A stretch of 44,679 bases of DNA from Escherichia phage vB_EcoS_UALMA_PCEc3: the sequence record PQ314493; one strand, 5' to 3'. Shown here piece by piece: positions 2,937 to 43,983 of this stretch. The notes beneath the pieces were generated by a model. It saw only the letters and a program-made list of their open reading frames with translations, was not told the origin of the DNA and searched no databases. Position 1 is the stretch's first letter; every line of letters starts with the position of its first letter. Made by a program: the position numbers and the translations under genes.

Positions 2937-3038
2937 CGTCGCGTTGCTAATGTTGGCCAAAGGGTGGAGCTTATACCTCCATAAAGCAATCTCCAGATAA
3001 GAGATGTAACGCAGGTTCGATTCCTGCCGCGACGACCA
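2937..3038 (+). tRNA. atypical tRNA-like RNA (~99 nt + CCA; anticodon unresolved, candidates GAT or TAT)
   Basis: perfect 7-bp acceptor pairing cgtcgcg/cgcgacg, canonical T-arm gcagg-TTCGATT-cctgc, encoded CCA; ~25 extra nt relative to a standard tRNA. Confidence 0.35.
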
Positions 3039-18551: not shown

Positions 18552-19104
18552 TATTAAGTTAGGATTATCGCTAGGCCGCAAGTTTGGCAAGATTCACCAA
18601 ATGGCAGTGAGTAGCGTGCCCGAGGCAATGCGAGCGCTTTGCTCTCAGATTCCTGCATTCAAGGAGTTCATGAATAGCCACGTTGGGCAAAATACAAAGT
18701 ACGCGGTCTTTGTGGATGGTAAAAATGTGAACGAGCATCGAATCTCTGATTTTAGTGCCGTTCAGGAGATACGAATCTTACCAATTCCCCAGGGGCGTAA
18801 GTCTGGCGGTTTGTTTCAGACAATTCTAGGTGCCGCGCTTATCACGGTTGGTATCTTCACCGGGCAGATTTATCTTGTTGGCGCTGGTGTGTCTTTAGCG
18901 GCGGGTGGTATTGCTCAGCTACTATCGCCGCAAGCAACAGGACTGAAGACTCAGAACAACCAAACAAGCAATCGCGCATCATATGCATTCGGTTCCGCTG
19001 TAAACACGGTAGCTGCTGGTTATCCAGTCTGCCTACCATATGGCTACAGAACGGTTGGTGGCTCGGTATTTAGTGCCGGCAGCTACGCCGAAGACAATGC
19101 TTAA
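18532..19104 (+). CDS. tail assembly protein (lambda gpI-like)
   Basis: 190 aa, overlaps gpK-like end, hydrophobic C-terminal half. Confidence 0.5.
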   Translation: MTQKLIDIKLGLSLGRKFGKIHQMAVSSVPEAMRALCSQIPAFKEFMNSHVGQNTKYAVFVDGKNVNEHRISDFSAVQEIRILPIPQGRKSGGLFQTILGAALITVGIFTGQIYLVGAGVSLAAGGIAQLLSPQATGLKTQNNQTSNRASYAFGSAVNTVAAGYPVCLPYGYRTVGGSVFSAGSYAEDNA

Positions 19105-23874: not shown

Positions 23875-23895
23875 GTTTAGCAATTAGTGCTATTC
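23875..23895 (-). promoter_or_regulatory. palindromic box copy (minus orientation) upstream of Cor-like gene
   Basis: minus-sense gaatagcactaattgctaaac; -10-like TACTAT and leader ccatcgaaacgaaac follow. Confidence 0.55.
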
Positions 23896-24137
23896 AACCA
23901 TCTGTTATATTTATCCCTCTCATTGATTGCCTTTTCAAGTGACTTGAATCTTAAAAGTAGATGCATGCAGTCAACACCCATAGTTAAGGATTCGTCACAG
24001 CTACTAGCACCTGTCAGCCAAAGTGAGAAGTATTGTTGATCAAGGCCGTAGTTCCTGTCTTTATTAACTCTAACGCTAACAACTTTAAATTCTAAACCAG
24101 CCAGCTTAACCTTATCTATAAATTCTGACTTATTCAT
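23877..24137 (-). CDS. hypothetical protein (C-terminus NSTNC encoded by box)
   Basis: track ORF 23877..24182; likely start at ATG 24137 after RBS aaaagggga; TAA stop inside box copy. Confidence 0.4.
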   Translation of the reverse strand: MNKSEFIDKVKLAGLEFKVVSVRVNKDRNYGLDQQYFSLWLTGASSCDESLTMGVDCMHLLLRFKSLEKAINERDKYNRWLNSTNC

Positions 24138-24190
24138 CTTGTTTCCCCTTTTGAGTTTACCTGGAAATAGTACATCACCCATGAGCTTTT

Positions 24191-24213
24191 TCTTTAGCTA
24201 TTTGTGCTATTGC
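24191..24213 (-). promoter_or_regulatory. box variant (minus orientation)
   Basis: minus-sense aatagcacaaatagctaaag. Confidence 0.45.
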
Positions 24214-24299
24214 ATACACGTAACCGATGTAACTCTATGTATACAATCTCATCCGCGGAAAATGATATACGCGCTGTTACGCCAATTTACGCATTGGTT

Positions 24300-24530
24300 A
24301 CATTAAAATATCTATATATATCAACCTTTTACTCTTATTATTATTATTATATATATTATTATGTATATCGTGTAACTACTTCTATAGAGTGTTCCGGTTA
24401 TAATTTTAATATCATGTGGATTTATACAGTATATAGCAACCAACATAGCAACGCACCATCCGCAATAAATGATATACACGATATACACGATGGTTACATT
24501 GAGCTATAGCTGGGCTTGGATGCCAAGAAG
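24300..24530. repeat. AT-rich intergenic repeat region A (TTA-repeat tract, GTTACGC-type iterons, AGCTATAGCT palindrome)
   Basis: shares ~40-nt and ~30-nt blocks with region 42660-42885. Confidence 0.5.
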
Positions 24531-24671
24531 CGTAACAGGTGCTAATGTCCACACGTAATTACAATGATTCACGCGTAAGTTGAATCAACGATTGGTAAAA
24601 CCAATTGGACTTGTTACGGTGTCGAATATATAGTTAACCCATAGAAAGCAAGCAACCAGAGAGATATAGAA

Positions 24672-26601: not shown

Positions 26602-27030
26602 ATGCACGTAATTACTGGTCAGATTCGCCGCGCTCCGTTCACTAAAGAAGGCGCAAACGCCAATGGTACATGGAAAATGTTTGCGGTTGACTTAAGTGAA
26701 CGATACAAGGATAAAGATGGGCAAAATCAGTACACCAACTATCGTGCCGTTTTTTTCGCTAAAGAGTCAATGCTAGATTGGTACAATGAGGCATTTCAAG
26801 AAGGTAAAGTTGTTAGCGTTAGTGCTGAAAGCATTGCTGTAGATGTTCGAGATAAAGATGGCAAGACTTATGTGACTATCAACATGAATAACCCTAGGCT
26901 TGAATTTAGTCAGCGTGGTGATGCGGCACCACAACAGAAGCAAAGACAACAACAGCAAGCCCAGCAACAGCAGCGTCAACAACAGCAACCTCAGCAGCAA
27001 CAGAACTTCGAGGACGACATTCCCTTCTAA
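26602..27030 (+). CDS. ssb: single-stranded DNA-binding protein
   Basis: OB-fold-sized N-terminal domain, Gln-rich linker, acidic C-terminal tail ending DDIPF. Confidence 0.8.
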   Translation: MHVITGQIRRAPFTKEGANANGTWKMFAVDLSERYKDKDGQNQYTNYRAVFFAKESMLDWYNEAFQEGKVVSVSAESIAVDVRDKDGKTYVTINMNNPRLEFSQRGDAAPQQKQRQQQQAQQQQRQQQQPQQQQNFEDDIPF

Positions 27031-27060
27031 AGAAAAGGCCCCTTTCGGGGCCTTTTTTAT
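27031..27060. terminator. bidirectional rho-independent terminator
   Basis: hairpin aggcccctttcggggcct flanked by A-run and T-run; convergent genes on both sides. Confidence 0.7.
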
Positions 27061-29867
27061 GAAGCTGTATTTACCTGAAGATATGCACCATTAGTTGCAC
27101 CAAACCATGCGTAAGCAGATCCGTAAGTTGTTGGGTTATCATTTAAGATGAAGTCACCCGCTCTAATTACGCACTTTTCTCCATATTTATCAGTTGGCCT
27201 TGCACTAAAACCATAATCAACATATCTAAAACCAACCTTCGTTACGTTATCGTTAAGAGGAAAAATATCCGAGAAGCTAGAAGCCCTAAAGTCATTGTTC
27301 CTGAAAATTCCTCCTGTAAAGTTATCCATATCAAACATTGTGGTTAAACTTGAAGCAACAGTATTCATGAACTTGTTGCCTTCATATGTCGGAGCTACTA
27401 CTTCATAGCCAACTCTTAGCTGAACAAATCCCCCATCAATAATATTGTCCTTGACTATTGGATATTGCCCGCCGATTGCTAAGCCACCAAACCCAGGTGT
27501 AAATTTGCAACTATTATTACTAAATATAGTGCCAACCCACGCCTGATTTGTAAGGTATGGTGCCTTAGTATCTGTCATGGTGTTCCCGGTGATAATCAAT
27601 CCATTCTTGGCCTGAATTCCCTCCTGGTAGCCCTGAATCGCTACGCCGCCACCAATCATAATGTTGCTGGATATAATAATGTTGCTCAACCCCTCATTAA
27701 CACCCCAATCACTTTCTGCATCATTTGTTATCAGTAAGTAGTGAGAAGAAGCCCTGCCAGTAGCGTCTGTAGTTATGATGCTTGTATTCCCTTTGCATAT
27801 AACATTGTTTGCCGCAAAAACCTCAACAAATATACCAGAGCCTTCGTAGTAGTTATCAGTAACCGTTACGTTATTGCCAGCCGGGGTTATCCTTGACTGG
27901 ATAGATATTGGATAATAGAACTTGTTGGCGTGAGCGTAAGACCTTCGGCTTCTCTCGGATATTGCATAATCCTCCGCGAAAGTATGCCATGCCCTTCCTG
28001 ACTGTTTTGTTGTGTTTCCTATAAACTCTGAGTAGTCACAGTTTCTTGTGATTAAGCAGTAGTTAGCGTTGTATCTGAAGCTTGAATTTCTAAGAGATAC
28101 GAATGCATTAGGTAAGCCATTAAGAGCATCGGCATTAACAAAGGCCCTCGAGGCATTAACCTCCATACCCTCGATCACAACTGATGCGCATCCTTCAACC
28201 ATAAAACCAAACCAGTCTTCTCTTGGTTTATGCTCTGTATCCGTTGGTTGGATTGAGTAATCTGAAAAGTCAGTATTCCAGTTGAGTCCGCTAGCTTTAA
28301 ATGTGCAACCTTTAAGCCCGAAAACAACCCTCTCTGGTGATGTGCTTCCAGAGATATCAATATCAACATCATTATTGGCAAAAATGTCAACAGTAAGTCC
28401 ATTGAGGAAGAATGCCGTTTGCCTTAACACTCTGTACTTATCATTGTACTGAACACCATCGGAGAATGAGACTTTCAGTCTTCCAGCGCTAATTCTTACC
28501 TTCCTGTTTGTATTGTGACCAAGGTTTATACATGCCATAACCGAGGCGTTTGATTCATTAACTCCAGACACATCATGACCAGCCCATTCGGTATGGATAT
28601 CATCAACACCTCCCGTAAACCTAACCCAGCAACCATTTTCACCTGGTGATGTCTCACCCGCTCCGCTAAGGAAGTCTGAAAGAGTGGAATATGTACCATC
28701 AAATGGAACCGTTGGGCTAAAAACAGTAATCCCGTTATGTTCGCTCTTACTTACTAATGGACTCCAGTAGAACAGACCGCCACCAGAGTTTGATCCAGAA
28801 ATGTAAGACCTTACATTTGCTAAATTTTTATTCTCATTTGTTTGTTTGATTAGTTCGTAAATTGAATCAACTGAAGATAGTCCTAAATTACTCCTGGCAA
28901 GGCTTTTATCCGCAACATCAGAGAAATTCAATGATTTTTGAAAAGTCTCATTTTTTGAGTAAACATCAAGTAAACCTCTTACTCGCTGGGCGTTAGCGCC
29001 TCCAGCTTCATTTCCGCCAGGCAAGTAGATTGACTCTCTAACATAGTATTTCCTAACACCACCGGAAGTATTGTAACTGATGTGATAACGTCTAAAGCTG
29101 CCATCGATACCGGTGTAGGTTGACACTTGAATATTTCTTGATCCAGTCCCAGTTGCTCCGCCCTCTACAGATATAACAAGCGTAGCATTGCTTGGTACTT
29201 TTAATGCTTCTGGTGCATTTGTGCAAGCAGAGAAAGCAACCCTATAATGACCGCCAACAACAAAATTAAAAGTTTGGAAATCAAGTTCACTTAAAATATT
29301 GCTACCATTACCGATACCCCAACCAGAAAGTGTAACTAGTGTTCCAGCATCACCAGCACTATTAATTGCCTCAATAGTAGCATCTCTCGCTGATGTGGTT
29401 GTATCTCTTGCACTAACGGCAGTAGCTGCGCTCTCTGCGGCAGCAATCTGGCTAGCTAAAGCATCCGCTGCACCTTGCACTGACTGGCTTGCCAATTGCT
29501 CAAAGCGAGGCCAATCAAAAGAATCCTGACCAATGAAATCAATCAGGCTCTGAATGCTAGTTTCCCTACTCTGATAATAACGAAGTGTCTCCGCTACATT
29601 TTGAGCCAAACCCTGAACGCTAATCCCATCATGAGCAAGAATGGCATATCCAGTACCAGCAGGAACAGTTTCGCCATTTGGGTTATATACAGACAATGAA
29701 GTGTCGCTGGTGATTTCAGAGATAGTGTAAATCTGTACTGGCTCTGTTTTGAATACAATTGTAGCACCAACGCGAATAAGTGTTAGTGGCATGGTCCATT
29801 GAGTGCCAACTCCAGTAACCTGACCGTTCGCTGCTAAACTGGCAGTGCCAGTATCATAAATTGCCAT
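27057..29867 (-). CDS. tail fiber / tailspike-like protein with beta-helix-like repeats
   Basis: track ORF 27057..29897; probable ATG 29867 after RBS ggag; Asn/Gly-rich repeats suggest parallel beta-helix (inference). Confidence 0.6.
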   Translation of the reverse strand: MAIYDTGTASLAANGQVTGVGTQWTMPLTLIRVGATIVFKTEPVQIYTISEITSDTSLSVYNPNGETVPAGTGYAILAHDGISVQGLAQNVAETLRYYQSRETSIQSLIDFIGQDSFDWPRFEQLASQSVQGAADALASQIAAAESAATAVSARDTTTSARDATIEAINSAGDAGTLVTLSGWGIGNGSNILSELDFQTFNFVVGGHYRVAFSACTNAPEALKVPSNATLVISVEGGATGTGSRNIQVSTYTGIDGSFRRYHISYNTSGGVRKYYVRESIYLPGGNEAGGANAQRVRGLLDVYSKNETFQKSLNFSDVADKSLARSNLGLSSVDSIYELIKQTNENKNLANVRSYISGSNSGGGLFYWSPLVSKSEHNGITVFSPTVPFDGTYSTLSDFLSGAGETSPGENGCWVRFTGGVDDIHTEWAGHDVSGVNESNASVMACINLGHNTNRKVRISAGRLKVSFSDGVQYNDKYRVLRQTAFFLNGLTVDIFANNDVDIDISGSTSPERVVFGLKGCTFKASGLNWNTDFSDYSIQPTDTEHKPREDWFGFMVEGCASVVIEGMEVNASRAFVNADALNGLPNAFVSLRNSSFRYNANYCLITRNCDYSEFIGNTTKQSGRAWHTFAEDYAISERSRRSYAHANKFYYPISIQSRITPAGNNVTVTDNYYEGSGIFVEVFAANNVICKGNTSIITTDATGRASSHYLLITNDAESDWGVNEGLSNIIISSNIMIGGGVAIQGYQEGIQAKNGLIITGNTMTDTKAPYLTNQAWVGTIFSNNSCKFTPGFGGLAIGGQYPIVKDNIIDGGFVQLRVGYEVVAPTYEGNKFMNTVASSLTTMFDMDNFTGGIFRNNDFRASSFSDIFPLNDNVTKVGFRYVDYGFSARPTDKYGEKCVIRAGDFILNDNPTTYGSAYAWFGATNGAYLQVNTAS

Positions 29868-29932: not shown

Positions 29933-29955
29933 TAAAAAAACCTCCCGAAGGAGGT
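29933..29955 (-). terminator. rho-independent terminator (minus strand) after primase gene
   Basis: minus-sense hairpin aacctccttcgggaggtt followed by T-run. Confidence 0.6.
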
Positions 29956-30878
29956 TAGTCTAGTAATTCGCTTGCTTTGTATATTCGCTTTCTTATGCCT
30001 GACTTGAAAAAATTATCATCATTTGGCATTACCACATCAAGATTGCGATCGTCAGCAACAGCGAGTAAATCAAAATCGTGGCGAGTACAAGCGACGCGTA
30101 ACTTGTAGTTTCTAAGCGCATAAGCAACCATTTCCATGTTGTAGCTGGAGTGGCAAACAAGCACGCAGCGGTTGCCAGTAGCAATGTGAACGCGATAGCC
30201 GTCAATGAGATTATCGACCAGATAAGCGTACTCATCATCTTTAAAGGCGCCAATAATAGAAACAGACTGGCGAGTATAATCTTTTGCAGCATAGCTAACA
30301 TCTCCATCTTCATTGATAAACATTACATTGCACATATCATCTGATATGCCGTCACTATAAGCCATAAAGCACGGTACTGCGTGTATTAGTTCGCCTGATT
30401 TAGTCCTGCCAACATCAAAACCAAATTCGCTATAGATACCCTCGTATATACTGAGCGGTGTTGATTCTACTCTTTCCGTCCTTTCCATTATCTCAAGGCA
30501 TCTTTCGTGGTCAATCTGCGCGCCCATTTTATAAAGCTTAGTTCTTGATGCTTGCTTGTTTGCCTTGTTGACAACCTCTACAGGAATGAGGTTTAACCAC
30601 TCACCTAGAGTGTCAATACATTCACTGAATGACTCCCCTCGCATCTTCTGCAGCCACAAAATTCCATCGCCTGAGCCGCACTGGTTGCAGATAATGCCAC
30701 CATCACCTTCTTCGCTAACCTTGTTGGTCCACCTGGCCCTGTCGTTACCGCCGCAATAAATGCATGGTTGATGCTTTTTGGTCTGGAAAAACCTAGGGTC
30801 TGCTCCGCAAATGTTTATAAGCGCCTTATCCCACATGCCGCGCATTCTTGGTAGAACCTCTTTCTTATCGTAGTGCAT
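29955..30878 (-). CDS. DNA primase (zinc-ribbon + TOPRIM-like, putative)
   Basis: CIYCGG...CNQCGSG zinc-binding motif; acidic DD cluster downstream. Confidence 0.55.
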   Translation of the reverse strand: MHYDKKEVLPRMRGMWDKALINICGADPRFFQTKKHQPCIYCGGNDRARWTNKVSEEGDGGIICNQCGSGDGILWLQKMRGESFSECIDTLGEWLNLIPVEVVNKANKQASRTKLYKMGAQIDHERCLEIMERTERVESTPLSIYEGIYSEFGFDVGRTKSGELIHAVPCFMAYSDGISDDMCNVMFINEDGDVSYAAKDYTRQSVSIIGAFKDDEYAYLVDNLIDGYRVHIATGNRCVLVCHSSYNMEMVAYALRNYKLRVACTRHDFDLLAVADDRNLDVVMPNDDNFFKSGIRKRIYKASELLD

Positions 30879-30936
30879 ATCAATCCATCTCTTAACAAAT
30901 AAAAAAGGATGTACCGATTATGGCACATCCAATTAT

Positions 30937-31410
30937 TTACTCTTTAGCTTTTCGTGCTGCTTCGTTAGCCGCCTTAATCTTGCGCCAGGAGCGACACTCT
31001 GGCTTGGTTGCTAGCTCCGCCTCAGTAACCACGCGCAGCATGTGACGCTTTTTGCAGCGCAGGGTTAGAGGCTTTCCGTTGCCATCGAATTGCAGATCTG
31101 GTCGGCAGAATGTAGCGCGAAAACCTTTTCCATTTCGCTTATAGTAGTTGTGCGACAACTGAGCGCCACGCGCAGAAATCATCCCACGCTTAAACCATTC
31201 TTCTACAGCCTGAGGTGTCACCTTTAACTGCTTTGCGATATTTGCCTTTGTGCCGAAGAAATCAAGAACAATCTCTAGCCGCGAGCGTAGCCCGGCTCTT
31301 ACTTCATCTTTTAAAACATAGTAGCCTGAAGGTCGTTTACGTTGCTTTTTGTCTTCGGTGCGGATGGTTCCGTTATTGCCGTTAATGGTTCGCTTGTCAA
31401 CTGCACTCAT
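30937..31410 (-). CDS. HTH DNA-binding protein (putative transcriptional regulator)
   Basis: HTH-like segment NIAKQLKVTPQAVEEWFKRG; basic; first gene of minus-strand operon. Confidence 0.5.
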   Translation of the reverse strand: MSAVDKRTINGNNGTIRTEDKKQRKRPSGYYVLKDEVRAGLRSRLEIVLDFFGTKANIAKQLKVTPQAVEEWFKRGMISARGAQLSHNYYKRNGKGFRATFCRPDLQFDGNGKPLTLRCKKRHMLRVVTEAELATKPECRSWRKIKAANEAARKAKE

Positions 31411-31421
31411 TTCATTACCTC

Positions 31422-31440
31422 AATAGCATTTTTTGTTAAA
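31422..31440 (+). promoter_or_regulatory. degenerate box variant in divergent HTH/helicase intergenic region
   Basis: aatagcattttttgttaaa. Confidence 0.35.
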
Positions 31441-31511
31441 AGTCATTATGATTTGATGGTAGTATTGTACTCAATTAAACGCTACAAGACAATTTTTATA
31501 GGAATTTAGAT

Positions 31512-36550: not shown

Positions 36551-37024
36551 ATGATTTACGTATTTGATATTGACGGAACTATAGCTAATAATGAGCATAG
36601 AAATCACCTTTTACCATCCAGTGACCTTCACTTGACTTCAAGTTGGAAGTATTACAATAAAGCCTGTTCTGGAGACTCACCAATAATCCCAATGATAAAC
36701 ATGATGAACAAACTTGCGGAATTATGTCCTGTTTACATAATGACATCCAGAAGTGATGAAGTTGAATGGAGAACCCTTGAGTGGCTTCAGGATAATAAGG
36801 TTGAGTATGATTCGATATACATGAGAAGTCGACATGACAACCGAAAGGATTACAAAATAAAAGAGGGATGGCTTAATGAAATCAGTGGTGGCGATAAAGG
36901 AAGTGTGGTTATTTTTGAAGATAACCCACAAGTAATTAAGCACCTAAGAAGTTGCGGATACACCGTTATGGCTGTATGTGAATATGAAGAACTACCTAAA
37001 GATTGCGAATCTCACGGAGAATGA
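36551..37024 (+). CDS. HAD-superfamily phosphatase (putative)
   Basis: N-terminal DIDGT motif; box copy upstream. Confidence 0.5.
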   Translation: MIYVFDIDGTIANNEHRNHLLPSSDLHLTSSWKYYNKACSGDSPIIPMINMMNKLAELCPVYIMTSRSDEVEWRTLEWLQDNKVEYDSIYMRSRHDNRKDYKIKEGWLNEISGGDKGSVVIFEDNPQVIKHLRSCGYTVMAVCEYEELPKDCESHGE

Positions 37025-39462: not shown

Positions 39463-41046
39463 TCACCCCAGCAATCTCGGATTAATGTAAACTTTATCAC
39501 CAATCAGGCACGTATAGTTTTTCTCATCAAGCATTGGCAGTAGGTGATCTTTAATCTTCGTCATTACTCCAGCCTGAGCCTCGAATGGCTTAACCTTTCG
39601 CGCCGCTTCATACAATGAGCGAATGCCAACAACACCCTTACCGTTTTTACCCTGCTTGATCAGGATATCAATCAGCTTATTCATCTCGGCATTGTCGCCA
39701 GCGTGACCAGCCGCGTTGGCAGATGACAGATAAGTCTTGCTAAGTTCCTGGAACATGATTACAGCTTCCTGCATGGTGTCGAGTTCAATTTCTCTGGACT
39801 TCTGCGGGCTACCGCCGTTAGGGTTGAACCAGTTACGAACAGTATGGAGAACCGCCGCAATCCTGATTGCCTGTTTATCGAACTTACCAAGCGCGCCGCG
39901 CAACATTGTGTGTGAATACTTACCGCCGTCAGCAAGGTGCGGCTCCATTTCCTGACGCGCTCTGTTGAGGTATTTCATTGCCGAGTTACTCACTGTCAAT
40001 TTTACATCTTGCTCATTCATTATTTCGTGAACAAGACGGAAGTAGTCAGCCTTCAGGCAACCATCAATTGGCTCATACGTTGATTCGCCATTTTCATCAA
40101 CGAATACACGCTCACCCAAGAATGACTTTTCACGCACAAGCAGGAAGCGCTCCGATACACCGATACCACGTGCGCCAGCATTCATGATTGCATTGATTGT
40201 TTCATCCTGCGCAATTACCGATATGCAACCCATAGCAACGAAGCTCATGTTGTTCTCTGCGTTCGCACGCGCAATAGATACGTTACCAGCATCCCACGCT
40301 TTAAGCACAAGTTCGCTGTTCGTCTTCTTCGAGCCGTCACCGTAAGTCATTCCCAATAGTGAGTTAACACTCGTTGCCTCATCAGAGATGACCGCGAAGT
40401 TGCCCTGACGGTTGTTTATTCGTGCAAGACCTTCCGGTGTGGTATCTGATACCGGGAATACGATATCGCACAGTTTCTCGAGCTTCTCCTCTAACTCCTC
40501 TTTCTCCTCAAAAAGTGAGGCCATCTCTGATGGTGACTTTTCCTGTTTCATCTCTTTTGATAATGCAGACAGCTTTGCCATAATCTTTTTGCGCTCACGC
40601 TTCCGCACTTCATTAAGCCGCTCAGTCTCAGCGATCATTGGAGCAATTGAGAGCGAGTTAATTGCTGATTTACCTGTCGATGGCGGCTGGCTTGTTACGA
40701 CGTATAGCGAAGTCGGTTGCTGGGTTCCGTGATACTCTACTGTAAAACGTCCCAGCATGGCGGCAGAAATACACCCCATAAAGTGCATATAAGCTGAAGA
40801 CTCTGGAAATTGGACAGAACGGGCAATATTGGCTGACAGCTTACCAACAACATCAATGTCATTACCGAGTGAGATTACGGGATACTTGTCATTAGCCGCA
40901 TCAATCTCGACTGGTGCTTTCCAGAATGATTGAGACTGGCGATAGCCATTGGCATTAATGGCGACTCGCAGTGGCGGGAGGTTGTCTGCGGCAGCAATTG
41001 CCATAACCTGTTCAACAGATAGTTTATCTTCGTTGAAATCAAACAT
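39463..41046 (-). CDS. P-loop NTPase-like protein (deviant Walker A PSTGKS, Walker B VISDE); long paralogue
   Basis: 527 aa; N-terminal ~45 aa and C-terminal ~70 aa homologous to ORF 43459..43983. Confidence 0.55.
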   Translation of the reverse strand: MFDFNEDKLSVEQVMAIAAADNLPPLRVAINANGYRQSQSFWKAPVEIDAANDKYPVISLGNDIDVVGKLSANIARSVQFPESSAYMHFMGCISAAMLGRFTVEYHGTQQPTSLYVVTSQPPSTGKSAINSLSIAPMIAETERLNEVRKRERKKIMAKLSALSKEMKQEKSPSEMASLFEEKEELEEKLEKLCDIVFPVSDTTPEGLARINNRQGNFAVISDEATSVNSLLGMTYGDGSKKTNSELVLKAWDAGNVSIARANAENNMSFVAMGCISVIAQDETINAIMNAGARGIGVSERFLLVREKSFLGERVFVDENGESTYEPIDGCLKADYFRLVHEIMNEQDVKLTVSNSAMKYLNRARQEMEPHLADGGKYSHTMLRGALGKFDKQAIRIAAVLHTVRNWFNPNGGSPQKSREIELDTMQEAVIMFQELSKTYLSSANAAGHAGDNAEMNKLIDILIKQGKNGKGVVGIRSLYEAARKVKPFEAQAGVMTKIKDHLLPMLDEKNYTCLIGDKVYINPRLLG

Positions 41047-42310: not shown

Positions 42311-42399
42311 ATCTATCTCCTCGTTTTGATGAGTTAACTATATCCTCCATGACCCCCAATGTCTTTAGCAAAAAGTGCTACTCGTTAGATTTATGTATT

Positions 42400-42462
42400 G
42401 TTGCAGATATTGCAATGATTCACATGATTATTGCACATATGGCAATATTGCTTCAGATGCAA
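42400..42462. promoter_or_regulatory. array of operator-like palindromes (TTGCA/ATTGC half-sites)
   Basis: TTGCAgatatTGCAA (42400-42414), ATTGCacatatgGCAAT (42429-42445), ATTGCttcagatGCAAT (42446-42462). Confidence 0.45.
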
Positions 42463-42659
42463 TGATGTTTTTGATTGTTGCGAAAAGTGAAATGAAGTGG
42501 TGAGTGAGTGAATGAAAGATGGATGGACTACCATACAAGTTGATTTTGATTCCCGCTGAGCCATTTCTAAGCTGACACGTAACGCCTGTAGCGCGATGTA
42601 AGCCAATGCCTATCGTTACGCTAGTTACGCGAAGCTACGCCCAGACTTACACTATAAGT

Positions 42660-42885
42660 GCCTAATATATATATATATCTTCTTTCTATTATTATTATTA
42701 TTATTAATATTATTGTATGTAAGTCATGTAACAGGGGTCCTGGCGATATCTATATGTTTTTTCCTATCAGTTATAGCCGAGGCTATAATTTAGGGTATGG
42801 TGGGGGTGTTTTGGGGATGTTTGCCTCGTTACACGCACGACACGCTACTCACATTGAGCTATAGCTGGGCTGGCATGCCATTTCG
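42660..42885. repeat. AT-rich intergenic repeat region B (paralogous to 24300-24530)
   Basis: shared acattgagctatagctgggc block and (tta)n tract; multiple cgtaacg/gttacgc copies nearby. Confidence 0.5.
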
Positions 42886-42979
42886 CGTAACGACCCCCAA
42901 AAGTTACCAAGAATTACACTTGACTACACGTGTAAGTCGGGATATTATGGACTCAACTTAAACGAGAGGAGTGATAGAG

Positions 42980-43459
42980 ATGAGCGAGAAGGTAACATTA
43001 GGCCAAGTGATTCGTGAGATGGTAAAAGCAGCGCTTAAGTCTGAGGATAAGCAGATCAGCGTGACACTCAACAAGATTGAGAGCCTTATTGGTGCCGAAG
43101 ATGGTGGCCTACACAAGCTTAAGAGCTCATACATCTATAATACAACGGCTCGCATGCCTGAGTTGAGAGATGCAGGACTGAAGGCAACTCACCATTATGA
43201 TGAGGATGAGGGTGATAGTGAGTTTGGTGAAACCACTCTGGCTGGAGACAAGAAGCTGGTTATTAAGCTTATTCCCGGCACGGCAAACATTGGAATCAGA
43301 AAGAAGACCAACGACGCGGTCAAGGATGAGGCAATCACTGAGTTCAAGGCCAGGATCTGCAAGTTGATGCCAGACCTATCTGAGTATGAGGGTGAAGCGC
43401 TTGCAGCCGCTATGAAGGCCATTAAGGATTACCGTTTAATTATTGAGGAGATTAAGTAA
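42980..43459 (+). CDS. hypothetical protein
   Basis: track ORF 42971..43459; ATG 42980 after RBS gagagga. Confidence 0.45.
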   Translation: MSEKVTLGQVIREMVKAALKSEDKQISVTLNKIESLIGAEDGGLHKLKSSYIYNTTARMPELRDAGLKATHHYDEDEGDSEFGETTLAGDKKLVIKLIPGTANIGIRKKTNDAVKDEAITEFKARICKLMPDLSEYEGEALAAAMKAIKDYRLIIEEIK

Positions 43460-43983
43460 TGTTTGACTTTAACGAGGATAAACTGACAGAAGAGCAGGTA
43501 ATAGAGATAGCCAAGCAAGATGGAATGCCTCCGCTGCGAATTGCAATCAATGCTAACGGGTATCGACAGTCAACGGCGTTTTGGGGCTCGATTGATATCT
43601 CAGAGGTGTATAGTGGTGATGAGCTTGGTGTACTGATTAAAATCATCAGGAAGATAGGAGTTAACGGCAAAGTAGTTGTCGGCATCAGATCTCTATATGA
43701 AGGCGCTCGCAAGTTAAAGCCATTTGCTGGGCGCGATGGAATGATGCTAGTGATCAAGGACAAGCTAATTCCAGAGCTCGATAAGATGAATGTTACCTGT
43801 CTAATTGGAGATAAGGTTTACTTCAACCCCTCCTTGACGGATTTAAGCTGGCAACCAAACTTCAAAACTTGCGAAGGTGAGCATGTTAGTAGACTACCAT
43901 ACCACTTGCGGTACAGAGAGGAAGAGGTGGAGATGGCGATTGAGTTCCACCGGAAAGCTAAACCACTCCTGAACGGTGAATAG
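43459..43983 (+). CDS. short paralogue of the P-loop NTPase-like protein (lacks NTPase core)
   Basis: MFDFNEDKL...INANGYRQS N-terminus and VVGIRSLYE...TCLIGDKVY C-terminal block shared with 39463..41046. Confidence 0.55.
   Translation: MFDFNEDKLTEEQVIEIAKQDGMPPLRIAINANGYRQSTAFWGSIDISEVYSGDELGVLIKIIRKIGVNGKVVVGIRSLYEGARKLKPFAGRDGMMLVIKDKLIPELDKMNVTCLIGDKVYFNPSLTDLSWQPNFKTCEGEHVSRLPYHLRYREEEVEMAIEFHRKAKPLLNGE

What the first reader, a model, noticed from the sequence alone, without database searches (positions are those of the whole stretch)
24183..24671. Two paralogous AT-rich intergenic regions with iteron-like repeats and perfect palindromes (candidate origin or regulatory hubs)
Regions 24183-24671 and 42480-42970 are both long non-coding divergent-promoter regions. 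They share a (TTA)n/AT-rich tract followed by gtatgta..gtaac, and the block acattgagctatagctgggc(t)gg(c)atgcc with a perfect 10-bp palindrome AGCTATAGCT and a GCATGC-centred palindrome. Both also carry multiple copies of cgtaacg/gttacgc-type short repeats and direct repeats such as aaatgatatacgcg / aaatgatatacacgatatacacgat. An AT-rich unwinding tract plus iterons is the classic architecture of replication origins, so these may be origin or packaging-related sites, or binding hubs for a regulator.
Basis: seen in the sequence. Interest (0 to 1): 0.6.

Follow-up and report, generated by a model that had tools for sequence, protein, structure and literature searches.

The report
Paired origin-like DNA modules, T1-like phage
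This T1/Rtp-like phage, like every relative checked, carries two related non-coding DNA modules that hold the two easiest-to-melt stretches of the genome flanked by short repeated words; they are the best candidates yet for the unmapped replication origins of this phage family, though no experiment shows this.

Summary
Regions 24138-24671 (A) and 42311-42979 (B) are non-coding, lie between divergent promoters, and share a colinear module (blastn E 6e-13 and 3e-10). The module has YGTAAC/GTTACR words in both orientations, a (TTA)n/TATA tract, and the block ACATTGAGCTATAGCTGGGCT, which occurs only at these two places.

The window is GenBank PP134917.1, an Rtp-like Drexlerviridae genome. In eight genomes from five lineages (Rtp-like, phiEB49, T1, TLS, a Klebsiella phage), the two least stable 60-bp windows of the whole genome are these two AT tracts. 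A and B resemble each other within a genome, while the repeated word differs between lineages. That points to a phage-encoded binding protein.

A's left half is almost invariant in eight orthologues. It is not coding, shows no RNA-structure signal, has no DnaA boxes, and has no match in E. coli genomes or plasmids.

The packaging start maps to a separate ATTGCA-repeat element at about 42384-42540, left of module B.

Best reading: paired replication origins that also control the adjacent early promoters (confidence about 0.45). Main rival: transcription-control hubs only.

The parts
24193..24210 (-). 21-nt 'DR' promoter-associated repeat (ATAGCACAAATAGCTAAA) for the leftward gene 23877-24137. 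It marks the left border of module A.
   Evidence: One of 19 genome copies. The family is described for TLS, T1 and Rtp in PMC11447400.
24214..24302 (.). Left repeat cluster of module A. It holds CGTAAC 24219 and TGTAAC 24228 (forward), then TCCGCGGAAAATGATATACGCG at 24252-24273, then GTTACG 24276, TTTACG 24286 and GTTACA 24297 (reverse, spaced 10-11 bp).
   Evidence: Motif map, enrichment, near-invariance in 8 orthologues.
24303..24368 (.). AT tract and candidate DNA unwinding element of module A. It contains TATATATAT, the IHF core consensus TATCAACCTTTTA (24319-24331) and (TTA)n TATATAT.
   Evidence: Second least stable 60-bp window of the genome: dG -54.1 against a mean of -79.7 +/- 4.7. 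TRF. The IHF consensus is 1 of 2 in the genome and is conserved in Rtp and SU57.
24369..24427 (.). Invariant block right of the AT tract (GTGTAAC at 24370-24376, TTATAATTTTAATATCATGTGGATTTATACAGTAT).
   Evidence: Alignment of 8 orthologues. With the two parts above, it ranks 10th among all 150-nt windows of the genome for conservation.
24467..24536 (.). Right repeat cluster of A: AAATGATATACACGATATACAC (GATATACAC x2.3), GGTTACA, the shared core ACATTGAGCTATAGCTGGGCT (24496-24516), and GCGTAAC (24530-24536).
   Evidence: (D9: 62 nt, 77% to B).
24554..24618 (.). Phased iteron-like words CGTAAT 24554 and CGTAAG 24574 (about 21 bp apart, continuing from 24531). Also the dyad ATTGGTAAAACCAAT / CCAATTGG abutting the -35, and GTTACG 24613 inside the promoter spacer.
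   Evidence: Conserved islands in 9 sequences while the spacers vary. Map.
24606..24634 (+). Sigma-70 promoter P_A (TGGACT-17-TATAGT, or TTGGAC-18-TATAGT) for the 64-aa gene and the exoVIII-Erf-SSB operon.
   Evidence: Scan. The hexamers are invariant and the spacer varies across orthologues.
42337..42381 (-). DR-type promoter for the leftward operon that includes the MCM-like helicase. It marks the left border of region B.
   Evidence: DR at 42364-42381, minus strand.
42384..42540 (+). Probable pac / packaging-initiation element, with repeated ATTGCA, TGCAAT and TTGTTGC words and AGATTTAT at 42387. It is not part of the A/B paralogy.
   Evidence: Motif map. The same type of repeat lies at T1 record position 1, the start of its annotated 2.8-kb terminal repeat. 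The MSK PhageTerm terminus 36862 (PMC8421802) maps to about 42532 through. Record starts of Rtp, SU57, EC3a, ZL19 and Rao1 fall at about 42441-42570. AGATTTAT itself is not unique: 6 genome copies.
42575..42651 (.). Left repeat cluster of module B: ACGTAACG, TGTAGCG and TGTAAGC (forward), then GTTACGC, GTTACGC, GCTACGC and CTTACAC (reverse).
   Evidence: Same order and orientation as in A.
42657..42732 (.). AT tract and candidate unwinding element of module B ((TA)n, (TTA)n), followed by TGTAAG and TGTAAC.
   Evidence: Least stable 60-bp window of the genome (start 42663, dG -52.9). TRF. D14: 43 nt, 84% to A.
42826..42893 (.). Right repeat cluster of B: the inverted pair TCGTTACACG / CGCGTAACGA flanking the shared core ACATTGAGCTATAGCTGGGCT (42851-42871) and GGCATGCC.
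42911..42948 (+). Sigma-70 promoter P_B (TTGACT-17-TATTAT, 42920-42948). Its -35 is bracketed by the inverted pair ATTACAC / GTGTAAG, which looks like an operator.
39463..41046 (-). Candidate trans factor: the DUF3987 (SF6, MCM-like) replicative helicase with a C-terminal winged helix, encoded in the operon that starts at region B.
29955..31410 (-). Candidate trans factors: a primase with a primase-type zinc-ribbon domain (29955-30878; annotated DNA primase in relatives) and a P22-Cro-like HTH protein (30937-31410).
   Evidence: Pfam and PHROGs. The recognition helix differs between the Rtp-like, T1 and TLS lineages.

Best explanation
The two regions are paralogous cis-acting modules where a nucleoprotein complex assembles. 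Most likely they are the phage's two replication origins, and they also act as operators for the adjacent early promoters.

Proposed mechanism (the module anatomy is shown; every functional step below is inferred):
1. A phage-encoded sequence-specific protein binds the short YGTAAC-type words. These sit in opposite orientations on both sides of the AT tract, one or two helical turns apart.
2. IHF bends the tract.
3. Divergent transcription from the flanking promoters adds negative supercoiling.
4. The (TTA)n/TATA tract, the least stable DNA in the genome, melts.
5. The phage's MCM-like DUF3987 helicase is loaded there.
6. The DnaG-type primase primes, and presumably host DNA polymerase III extends.
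7. Repeat words lying inside or around the -35/spacer of P_A and P_B let the same protein shut off or tune early transcription.

Module B lies 100-200 bp inside the packaging start, next to a separate pac element.
For: Shown:
- Colinear A/B paralogy.
- Enrichment of the repeat word (p 3e-8 and 6e-6), with the same orientation pattern in both copies.
- In all 8 genomes examined (window, Rtp, EC3a, SU57, phiEB49, T1, TLS, Klebsiella K50_evo34), the AT tracts of the A- and B-equivalents are among the three least stable 60-bp windows. They are the two least stable in seven genomes. Values are -53 to -60 kcal/mol against means of -79 to -84, about 5 SD out and clearly separated from the next window.
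- A/B similarity exists within genomes even where no similarity remains between lineages (TLS 36 bits, Klebsiella phage 94 bits).
- The enriched word differs by lineage: GCGTAAC here, TGTAACA in T1 (6 of 6 genome copies lie in the two regions), GTGAACA in TLS. This is concerted evolution of the two copies, and suggests a phage-encoded rather than a host binding factor.
- A's left 210 nt are almost invariant in 8 orthologues and 97% identical to Rtp, against a genome mean of 85%.
- The region is not coding. It is not a known or structured RNA.

From the literature: no origin has been identified in T1-like phages (PMC11447400, PMC7718038).

From general knowledge: repeats flanking an AT-rich unwinding element is the common architecture of iteron origins, archaeal ORB origins and SV40/papillomavirus origins.
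Against: - There is no experimental datum on replication initiation.
- The repeats are short words, not classical 17-22-bp tandem iterons.
- There are no DnaA boxes and no GATC cluster.
- GC skew gives no origin signal.
- The binding protein is unidentified. The helicase winged helix has few basic residues in its predicted recognition helix, and in archaea the MCM winged helix is not the origin reader.
- Several repeat words overlap the early promoters, so a purely transcriptional role would explain part of the pattern.
- Module B is poorly conserved between close relatives, which is unusual for an essential origin unless A and B are redundant.
- T1-like phages also encode RecE/Erf, so recombination-dependent replication could reduce the need for a defined origin.
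Confidence: 0.45

Rival explanations
1. The modules are transcription-control hubs only. They would be arrays of operators for a phage regulator, with an IHF-bent, easily melted or curved AT tract, that switch the two canonical sigma-70 early promoters (P_A, P_B) and the divergent DR promoters on and off. Looping between the left and right repeat clusters is possible. Replication would start elsewhere or by recombination.
For: - Repeat words lie in the spacer of P_A (GTTACG 24613) and bracket the -35 of P_B as an inverted pair (42911-42938).
- A conserved dyad abuts the -35 of P_A.
- Words upstream of P_A are phased at about 21 bp.
- An IHF consensus sits in the tract.
- Both modules sit exactly between divergent promoters.
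- The phage encodes a Cro-like HTH protein whose recognition helix differs between lineages.
Against: - The most conserved part, the left cluster plus the AT tract, lies 240-390 bp upstream of P_A. That is far from where operators or UP elements act.
- Conservation of 'the two least stable DNA segments of the genome' across lineages whose sequences no longer align is not expected for operators.
- The third divergent promoter region (31411-31511), next to the HTH gene, has none of these words.
Confidence: 0.3
2. The modules are sites for recombination or concatemer processing, for example entry or pairing sites for the RecE/Erf system or for a phage endonuclease. They would drive recombination-dependent replication or concatemer formation rather than de novo initiation.
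For: - Module A lies directly upstream of the exoVIII-Erf-SSB operon.
- Module B lies within the terminal redundancy region next to pac.
- The A and B copies show signs of gene conversion: in SU57, B has a 70-nt stretch 91% identical to A.
- An easily melted tract would favour strand invasion.
Against: - No nuclease or recombinase recognition motif was identified.
- Homologous recombination systems of the RecE/Erf type are not known to need specific sites (general knowledge).
- This reading does not explain the lineage-specific, oriented repeat words.
Confidence: 0.1
3. The modules are packaging signals: pac sites or accessory terminase-binding and bending sites.
For: - Module B starts about 10-40 bp right of the mapped or inferred packaging start.
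- AT-rich bent DNA is part of some pac sites (general knowledge, SPP1).
Against: - The ATTGCA/TTGTTGC repeat element that coincides with termini is absent from A.
- PhageTerm for the relative MSK reported a single terminus (PMC8421802).
- No GenBank record in the family starts at A.
- So the shared module is not sufficient for packaging initiation.
Confidence: 0.07
4. The regions encode something: a small protein (as annotated for rtp46 and Ec3a_41) or a non-coding RNA.
For: - Rtp and EC3a records annotate a 132-143-aa ORF running from the GATATACAC repeats into the 64-aa gene.
- PHROG 35664 contains such extended proteins.
- The shared core translates to TLSYSWA in both copies.
Against: - Variable columns fall 24/20/18 over codon positions.
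- The frame carries stops in 3 of 8 orthologues, a frameshift in one, and a lost ATG in three.
- There is no Rfam match at E <= 1 apart from a sub-threshold hit outside the module.
- Alifold z = -0.05 (plus strand) and -1.8 (minus strand) for the variable half.
- There is no terminator.
Confidence: 0.03

Closest known systems
Bacillus phage SPP1 oriL / oriR, and satellite phage P4 ori / crr (two separated cis regions sharing the same initiator-binding repeats next to AT-rich DNA). Recalled from memory, not checked here.
   Same: - Two copies per genome, kilobases apart.
- Both share short repeats and an AT-rich tract.
- The copies co-evolve within a genome.
- The phage supplies its own helicase and primase and uses a host polymerase.
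   Different: - No homologue of SPP1 G38P or of the P4 alpha origin-binding domain was found. The helicase is DUF3987/MCM-like, not DnaB-type (SPP1) or SF3 (P4).
- The repeats here are 6-8-bp words in both orientations.
- Function is untested.
Origins read by AAA+ initiator or helicase systems: archaeal oriC (inverted ORB elements flanking a DUE, MCM loaded) and the SV40/papillomavirus core origin (inverted pentamers or hexamers, an AT tract, between divergent promoters). General knowledge.
   Same: - Short words in inverted orientation flank the unwinding element.
- The module lies between divergent promoters.
- The helicase has an MCM-type AAA+ fold with a C-terminal winged helix.
   Different: - This is a bacterial virus.
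- No Orc1/Cdc6 or E1/LTag origin-binding-domain homologue was identified.
- It is unknown which protein reads the words.
- The resemblance is architectural only.
Classical iteron origins (lambda ori, P1/F/pSC101-type plasmids, SaPI ori).
   Same: Repeats plus an adjacent AT-rich DUE, an IHF site, and overlap with promoter control (autoregulation).
   Different: - No 17-22-bp tandem iterons.
- No DnaA boxes.
- Not inside or directly next to an initiator gene.
P22/SPP1-type pac sites of headful-packaging phages.
   Same: Region B contains the family's packaging start. T1's small terminase is annotated as P22 gp3-like.
   Different: The pac-associated repeats (42384-42540) are a separate element, absent from A. 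The shared module is not pac.
The 21-nt 'DR' repeat of T1-like phages (aaATAGCACnnnTTGnTAAAA; PMC11447400).
   Same: It is also an unexplained conserved non-coding repeat of this family. One copy borders each module on the left.
   Different: - 19 copies, each about 75 nt upstream of a start codon and oriented with transcription.
- It is a promoter-associated element, unrelated in sequence to the module.

Membership tests
Iteron-type replication origin | AT-rich DNA unwinding element adjacent to the repeats | tested here: met
   In 7 of 8 genomes the AT tracts of A and B are the two least stable 60-bp windows of the genome (phiEB49 has a third, adjacent to A).
Iteron-type replication origin | Several phased copies of an initiator-binding repeat (classically 17-22-bp direct repeats) | tested here: inconclusive
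   6-8-bp words are strongly enriched (p 3e-8 and 6e-6), spaced 10-11 or about 21 bp apart, in both orientations. TRF finds no long tandem iterons.
Iteron-type replication origin | DnaA boxes (for the DnaA-dependent class) | tested here: not met
   No TTWTNCACA in any A or B region of 6 genomes, and only a single one-mismatch TTATCCACA match in the B regions of T1, phiEB49 and TLS.
Iteron-type replication origin | Replication initiates there, and the region confers replication in the presence of the initiator | not testable with these tools
   Needs marker-frequency sequencing or an origin-cloning assay.
Bipartite or dual origins (P4 ori/crr, SPP1 oriL/oriR) | Two separated cis regions sharing the same repeat set | tested here: met
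Bipartite or dual origins (P4 ori/crr, SPP1 oriL/oriR) | Homologous initiator (P4 alpha with its C-terminal origin-binding domain; SPP1 G38P) | tested here: not met
   Only the primase zinc-ribbon domain is shared with P4 alpha-type primases. The helicase is DUF3987/MCM-like. Among the proteins scanned, none matched an origin-binding or initiator family.
Headful pac site | Coincides with mapped virion termini or the packaging start | tested here: not met
   Termini and record starts map to 42441-42570, left of module B. None map to A. This holds for the shared module; the separate element at 42384-42540 does meet the criterion indirectly.
Sigma-70 promoter/operator region | -35 and -10 hexamers at 16-18 bp, conserved while the spacer varies | tested here: met
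   P_A 24606-24634 and P_B 42920-42948. This covers only the right-hand about 40 bp of each module.
Sigma-70 promoter/operator region | Regulator binding at dyads that overlap the promoter | not testable with these tools
   The dyads are present. Binding is untested.
Structured non-coding RNA | Rfam match or conserved secondary structure with covariation | tested here: not met
Protein-coding gene (rtp46 / Ec3a_41 type annotation) | Open frame and codon-position substitution pattern conserved in orthologues | tested here: not met

The most novel reading that the evidence does not exclude
Drexlerviridae (T1-like phages) may replicate from two co-evolving origins built like archaeal or SV40-type origins. 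Short inverted recognition words would flank the genome's most meltable tract between divergent promoters, and an MCM-like (SF6, DUF3987) helicase with a winged-helix tail would be loaded there, possibly loading itself. One origin would sit immediately inside the packaging start. This would be the first defined origin for this large phage family and a bacterial-virus example of MCM-type origin firing.
Probability: 0.25. Interest if true: 0.75.

Novelty: new member of a known kind. Interest (0 to 1): 0.55.

Why it matters
T1-like phages are one of the classic coliphage groups. They are a notorious laboratory and fermentation contaminant and a large family: more than 1,200 phage records encode the neighbouring exoVIII gene.

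The two family papers that looked state that no origin could be found. Two precisely delimited candidate regions now exist, with a simple family-wide signature: the two least stable DNA segments, paralogous within a genome, flanked by lineage-specific words. That makes the question directly testable.

The result also:
- separates the packaging start from the shared module;
- flags annotated ORFs in reference genomes (rtp46, Ec3a_41) as probably spurious;
- points to the MCM-like helicase, the Cro-like HTH protein and a truncated helicase paralogue as candidate binding partners.

If the regions are confirmed as origins, they would be useful for engineering T1-like phages and for anti-contamination strategies.

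Tried and rejected
- **GC skew.** Cumulative GC/AT skew follows gene orientation only and gives no origin signal.
- **Rfam.** The gathering scan of the whole window found only tRNAs. E-value scans of both regions found nothing in the modules.
- **RNA structure.** RNAalifold with column shuffles gave no signal in the variable half. The invariant half cannot show covariation.
- **Coding test** of the annotated or possible ORFs: rejected.
- **Host-factor sites.** DnaA boxes and GATC clustering are absent. An IHF core consensus is present in A only in this genome.
- **Other collections.** No match for module A in E. coli complete genomes or in plasmids, so there is no satellite or plasmid counterpart there. 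An exact-pattern scan of IMG/VR returned only 4 loci, from 3 contigs (two of them match known relatives). The search for related loci with exoVIII returned only close relatives.
- **Third divergent promoter region** (31411-31511): no module words.
- **Mini-helicase paralogue.** The AF2 model was unusable (pLDDT 42). A profile search against PDB sequences and a Pfam scan found nothing. The paralogue is absent from Rtp, T1, TLS and the Klebsiella phage, so it cannot be the universal binding factor.
- **P22-pac-like AGATTTAT** at 42387: 6 copies in the genome, so it is weak evidence on its own.
- **Literature.** The Rtp genome paper is not held. Searches for replication or transcript mapping in this family returned nothing relevant.
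- **P4 iteron resemblance.** The P4 type I iteron (TGTTCACC, from memory) resembles the TLS word GTGAACA, but this could not be verified in the library. It is treated as a lead only.
Full report
**Identity and context**

The window is 100% identical, reverse-complemented and rotated, to GenBank PP134917.1, 'Pseudomonas phage PsgS01F'. Its closest relatives are Rtp-like coliphages of the Drexlerviridae (Rtp, vB_EcoS_CEB_EC3a, SU57, DTL and others). Identity in the two regions of interest is 85-99%.

Gene order matches Rtp and T1.
- Region A lies between a leftward block (86-aa protein, Cor-like lipoprotein, membrane protein) and a rightward operon (64-aa protein, exonuclease VIII, Erf, SSB).
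- Region B lies between a leftward operon that includes a 527-aa helicase and the rightward block of small early genes that leads to the terminase.

**Checking the observation**

- The 21-mer ACATTGAGCTATAGCTGGGCT and the palindrome AGCTATAGCT occur only at 24496/24502 and 42851/42857.
- (TTA)9 and (TAT)9 runs lie at 24335-24362 and 42687-42714.
- AAATGATATAC occurs only at 24260 and 24467.
- A and B align colinearly: blastn E 6e-13 and 3e-10, 71% identity overall.
- YGTAAC/GTTACR occurs 8 times in A and 6 times in B, against about 0.45 expected. These are the two densest 400-bp windows in the genome.

The true non-coding spans are 24138-24671 and 42311-42979.

- The 10-bp palindrome is broken in four of eight orthologues.
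- GCATGC is present only in this B copy.

**Anatomy**

Both regions begin on the left with one copy, on the minus strand, of the 21-nt 'DR' repeat. This repeat precedes many genes of T1-like phages and is already described, with unknown function, for TLS, T1 and Rtp (PMC11447400). The window has 19 copies.

Both regions end on the right with a canonical sigma-70 promoter: P_A at 24606-24634 and P_B at 42920-42948. Their hexamers are invariant in orthologues while the spacer varies.

The shared module lies between these borders. Reading left to right it contains:
1. Two forward YGTAAC words.
2. Three or four reverse words, spaced 10-11 bp.
3. The AT tract.
4. A forward word.
5. A variable spacer.
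6. A second cluster: GATATACAC repeats in A, then the shared core, then GCGTAAC.
7. Further words, about 21 bp apart, that run into the promoter. GTTACG lies in the P_A spacer. The inverted pair ATTACAC/GTGTAAG brackets the -35 of P_B.

Region B has an extra left-hand element at about 42384-42540, made of ATTGCA/TGCAAT/TTGTTGC repeats. A lacks this element.

**The packaging start is a separate element**

- T1's reference record begins, with its annotated 2.8-kb terminal repeat, inside the equivalent repeat element (GATGTGATTGTTGC twice).
- The records of Rtp, SU57, EC3a, ZL19 and Rao1 start at positions equivalent to window 42441-42570. The SU57 start was chosen from PhageTerm output and a coverage step.
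- The PhageTerm terminus published for the relative MSK (position 36862, packaging in the forward direction; PMC8421802) maps to about 42532 through the alignment.
- No record starts in A.

**Family-wide conservation**

This is the main new result. I took whole genomes from five lineages:
- Rtp, EC3a, SU57 and the window (Braunvirinae)
- phiEB49 (Rogunavirinae)
- T1 (Tunavirinae)
- TLS (Tempevirinae)
- a Klebsiella phage, K50_evo34 (a Klebsiella-infecting relative; its record carries no family assignment)

In every one, the positional equivalents of A (upstream of the exoVIII operon) and B (next to the conventional genome start) are long non-coding regions. In seven of the eight genomes, the two least stable 60-bp windows of the entire genome by nearest-neighbour free energy are their AT tracts. 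Values are -53 to -60 kcal/mol against means of -79 to -84 with SD about 5, and the third-ranked window is clearly separated. phiEB49 has one extra such window, adjacent to A.

The A and B copies are recognisably paralogous within genomes:
- Rtp: 83% over 123 nt.
- SU57 and EC3a.
- TLS: 36 bits.
- Klebsiella phage: 94 bits with low-complexity filtering.
- T1: similarity in the AT tract and the same architecture only.

Between distant lineages, neither A nor B can be aligned.

The enriched words differ by lineage:
- window: GCGTAAC
- T1: TGTAACA, with all 6 genome copies in the two regions
- Rtp: CCGCGGA, 6 of 6
- SU57: GATATAC
- TLS: GTGAACA

This is concerted evolution of two copies. It is the pattern expected if one phage-encoded sequence-specific protein, changing its specificity over time, reads both copies. 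A host factor would give the same word in all coliphages.

Within the Rtp-like group, A's left 210 nt (24214-24427) are nearly invariant in eight orthologues. They rank tenth among all 150-nt windows of the genome for conservation, the other top windows lying in the terminase-to-capsid and tail gene regions. B is much more variable and mosaic between close relatives.

**What it is not**

- *Not protein-coding.* Some records annotate an ORF here (rtp46, Ec3a_41). But variable columns are spread 24/20/18 over codon positions, and orthologues carry stops, a frameshift and lost start codons.
- *Not a known RNA family*. It shows no conserved-structure signal where sequences vary (z = -0.05 and -1.8), and it has no terminator.
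- *Not a DnaA-type origin.* There are no DnaA boxes and no GATC cluster.
- *Not found elsewhere.* There is no counterpart in 5,426 complete E. coli genomes or 72,556 plasmids.

GC skew is uninformative.

One of only two IHF core consensus matches in the genome lies in A's AT tract. It is conserved in Rtp and SU57, and in SU57 it is also present in B.

**The replication proteins**

The phage encodes:
- a primase with a primase-type zinc-ribbon domain (annotated DNA primase in relatives);
- a Cro-like HTH protein next to the primase;
- a DEAD-box-type helicase;
- SSB, exoVIII and Erf;
- a 527-aa DUF3987 protein.

No DNA polymerase or recognised initiator is annotated in the Rtp, T1 or TLS records.

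This agrees with the literature. DUF3987 proteins are SF6 helicases distantly related to MCM, carry a C-terminal wHTH and are proposed to be replicative helicases (PMC4889955). One member is an oligomeric 5'-3' helicase in vitro (PMC11724360).

The helicase gene lies in the operon that starts at region B.

The HTH recognition helix differs between the Rtp-like, T1 and TLS lineages, as does the helicase tail. That is compatible with either protein reading the words but does not discriminate between them.

**Interpretation**

The anatomy is: oriented short words on both sides of the most meltable DNA, an IHF site, a position between divergent promoters, two co-evolving copies, and a phage that brings its own replicative helicase and primase. 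This matches replication origins better than any other known class.

Its nearest analogues are two-copy systems (SPP1 oriL/oriR, P4 ori/crr) and origins served by AAA+ helicases (archaeal ORB/DUE origins, the SV40 core origin). These comparisons come from general knowledge and concern how the module may work, not membership. No homologous initiator was found, there are no classical tandem iterons, and there are no DnaA boxes.

The words that overlap P_A and P_B show that the same binding protein very probably also controls early transcription. A purely transcriptional role is therefore the serious rival. Against it stand two points. The best conserved part lies 240-390 bp upstream of P_A. And the conserved property across lineages is duplex instability, not sequence.

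I put the origin-plus-operator reading at about 0.45, transcription-only at 0.3, recombination or concatemer roles at 0.1, packaging at 0.07, and a coding or RNA product at 0.03.

**Novelty**

The papers I could read on TLS and SU57 state that no origin or iterons were found in T1-like genomes. I found no description of these paired modules in the searchable literature. The original Rtp paper is not held and the T1 genome paper was not consulted, so prior mention there cannot be excluded.

If the modules are origins, they are a new member of a known kind (repeat-plus-DUE origins present in two copies). The less common feature would be an MCM-like helicase in a bacterial virus.

Noticed in passing
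window 43459-43983 (+): A 174-aa protein, the second gene right of region B, is an internally deleted paralogue of the MCM-like DUF3987 helicase. Its aa 1-50 match helicase aa 1-50 (53% identity) and its aa 51-126 match the helicase C-terminal winged-helix region 448-525 (62% identity, E 4e-27). The ATPase core is missing. It is present in the window, SU57 and phiEB49 but not in Rtp, T1, TLS or the Klebsiella phage. It could be a regulator or competitor of helicase loading.
   Followed up: partly
[not shown]
   Followed up: yes
19 sites, e.g. window 258, 978, 1153, 1720, 5526, 25836, 34135, 37565, 43980 (+); 23876, 24193, 41534, 42364 (-): The 21-nt repeat ATAGCACnnnTTGCTAAA, followed about 22 nt later by TATAGTTA and about 75 nt later by a start codon, precedes many genes in the direction of transcription. 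It contains the dyad TAGCA-N5-TGCTA. It is the known 'DR' element of TLS, T1 and Rtp, whose function is an open question (PMC11447400).
   Followed up: partly
window 42384-42540: A cluster of ATTGCA/TGCAAT/TTGTTGC repeats, with AGATTTAT at 42387, coincides with published or inferred packaging starts of relatives (MSK terminus at about 42532; record starts of Rtp, SU57, EC3a, ZL19, Rao1; T1 position 1). This is the probable pac site.
   Followed up: partly
whole window: The matching GenBank record is named 'Pseudomonas phage PsgS01F', with host Pseudomonas syringae pv. garcae. The genome is nevertheless an Rtp/Guelphvirus-like coliphage genome: region B is 98-99.6% identical to E. coli phage vB_EcoS_CEB_EC3a and exoVIII is 100% identical. 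The host assignment looks doubtful, or the phage may have been a contaminant.
   Followed up: no
L004 (Rtp) 28260-28658; L006 (EC3a) 26617-27048: The annotated genes rtp46 and Ec3a_41 extend the conserved 64-aa gene upstream through the right half of module A. The frame is not conserved in orthologues and shows no codon-position pattern, so the extension is probably an annotation artefact.
   Followed up: yes
window 2937-3035 (+): Rfam reports a second tRNA-like match (39.4 bits, 99 nt) directly after tRNA-Arg(TCT) at 2853-2930. ARAGORN reports only the first.
   Followed up: no
L020 (phiEB49) about 18579-18638: phiEB49 has a third extremely unstable 60-bp window (dG -53.1) in the short gap between gp30 and gp31, about 700 bp from its module A.
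   Followed up: no
window 24490-24520 and 42845-42875, minus strand: Read on the minus strand, the shared core is GCCCAGCTATAGCTCAATG. By eye this resembles the 5' acceptor/D-arm of a tRNA. ARAGORN and Rfam find no tRNA there, so it is probably coincidence.
   Followed up: partly
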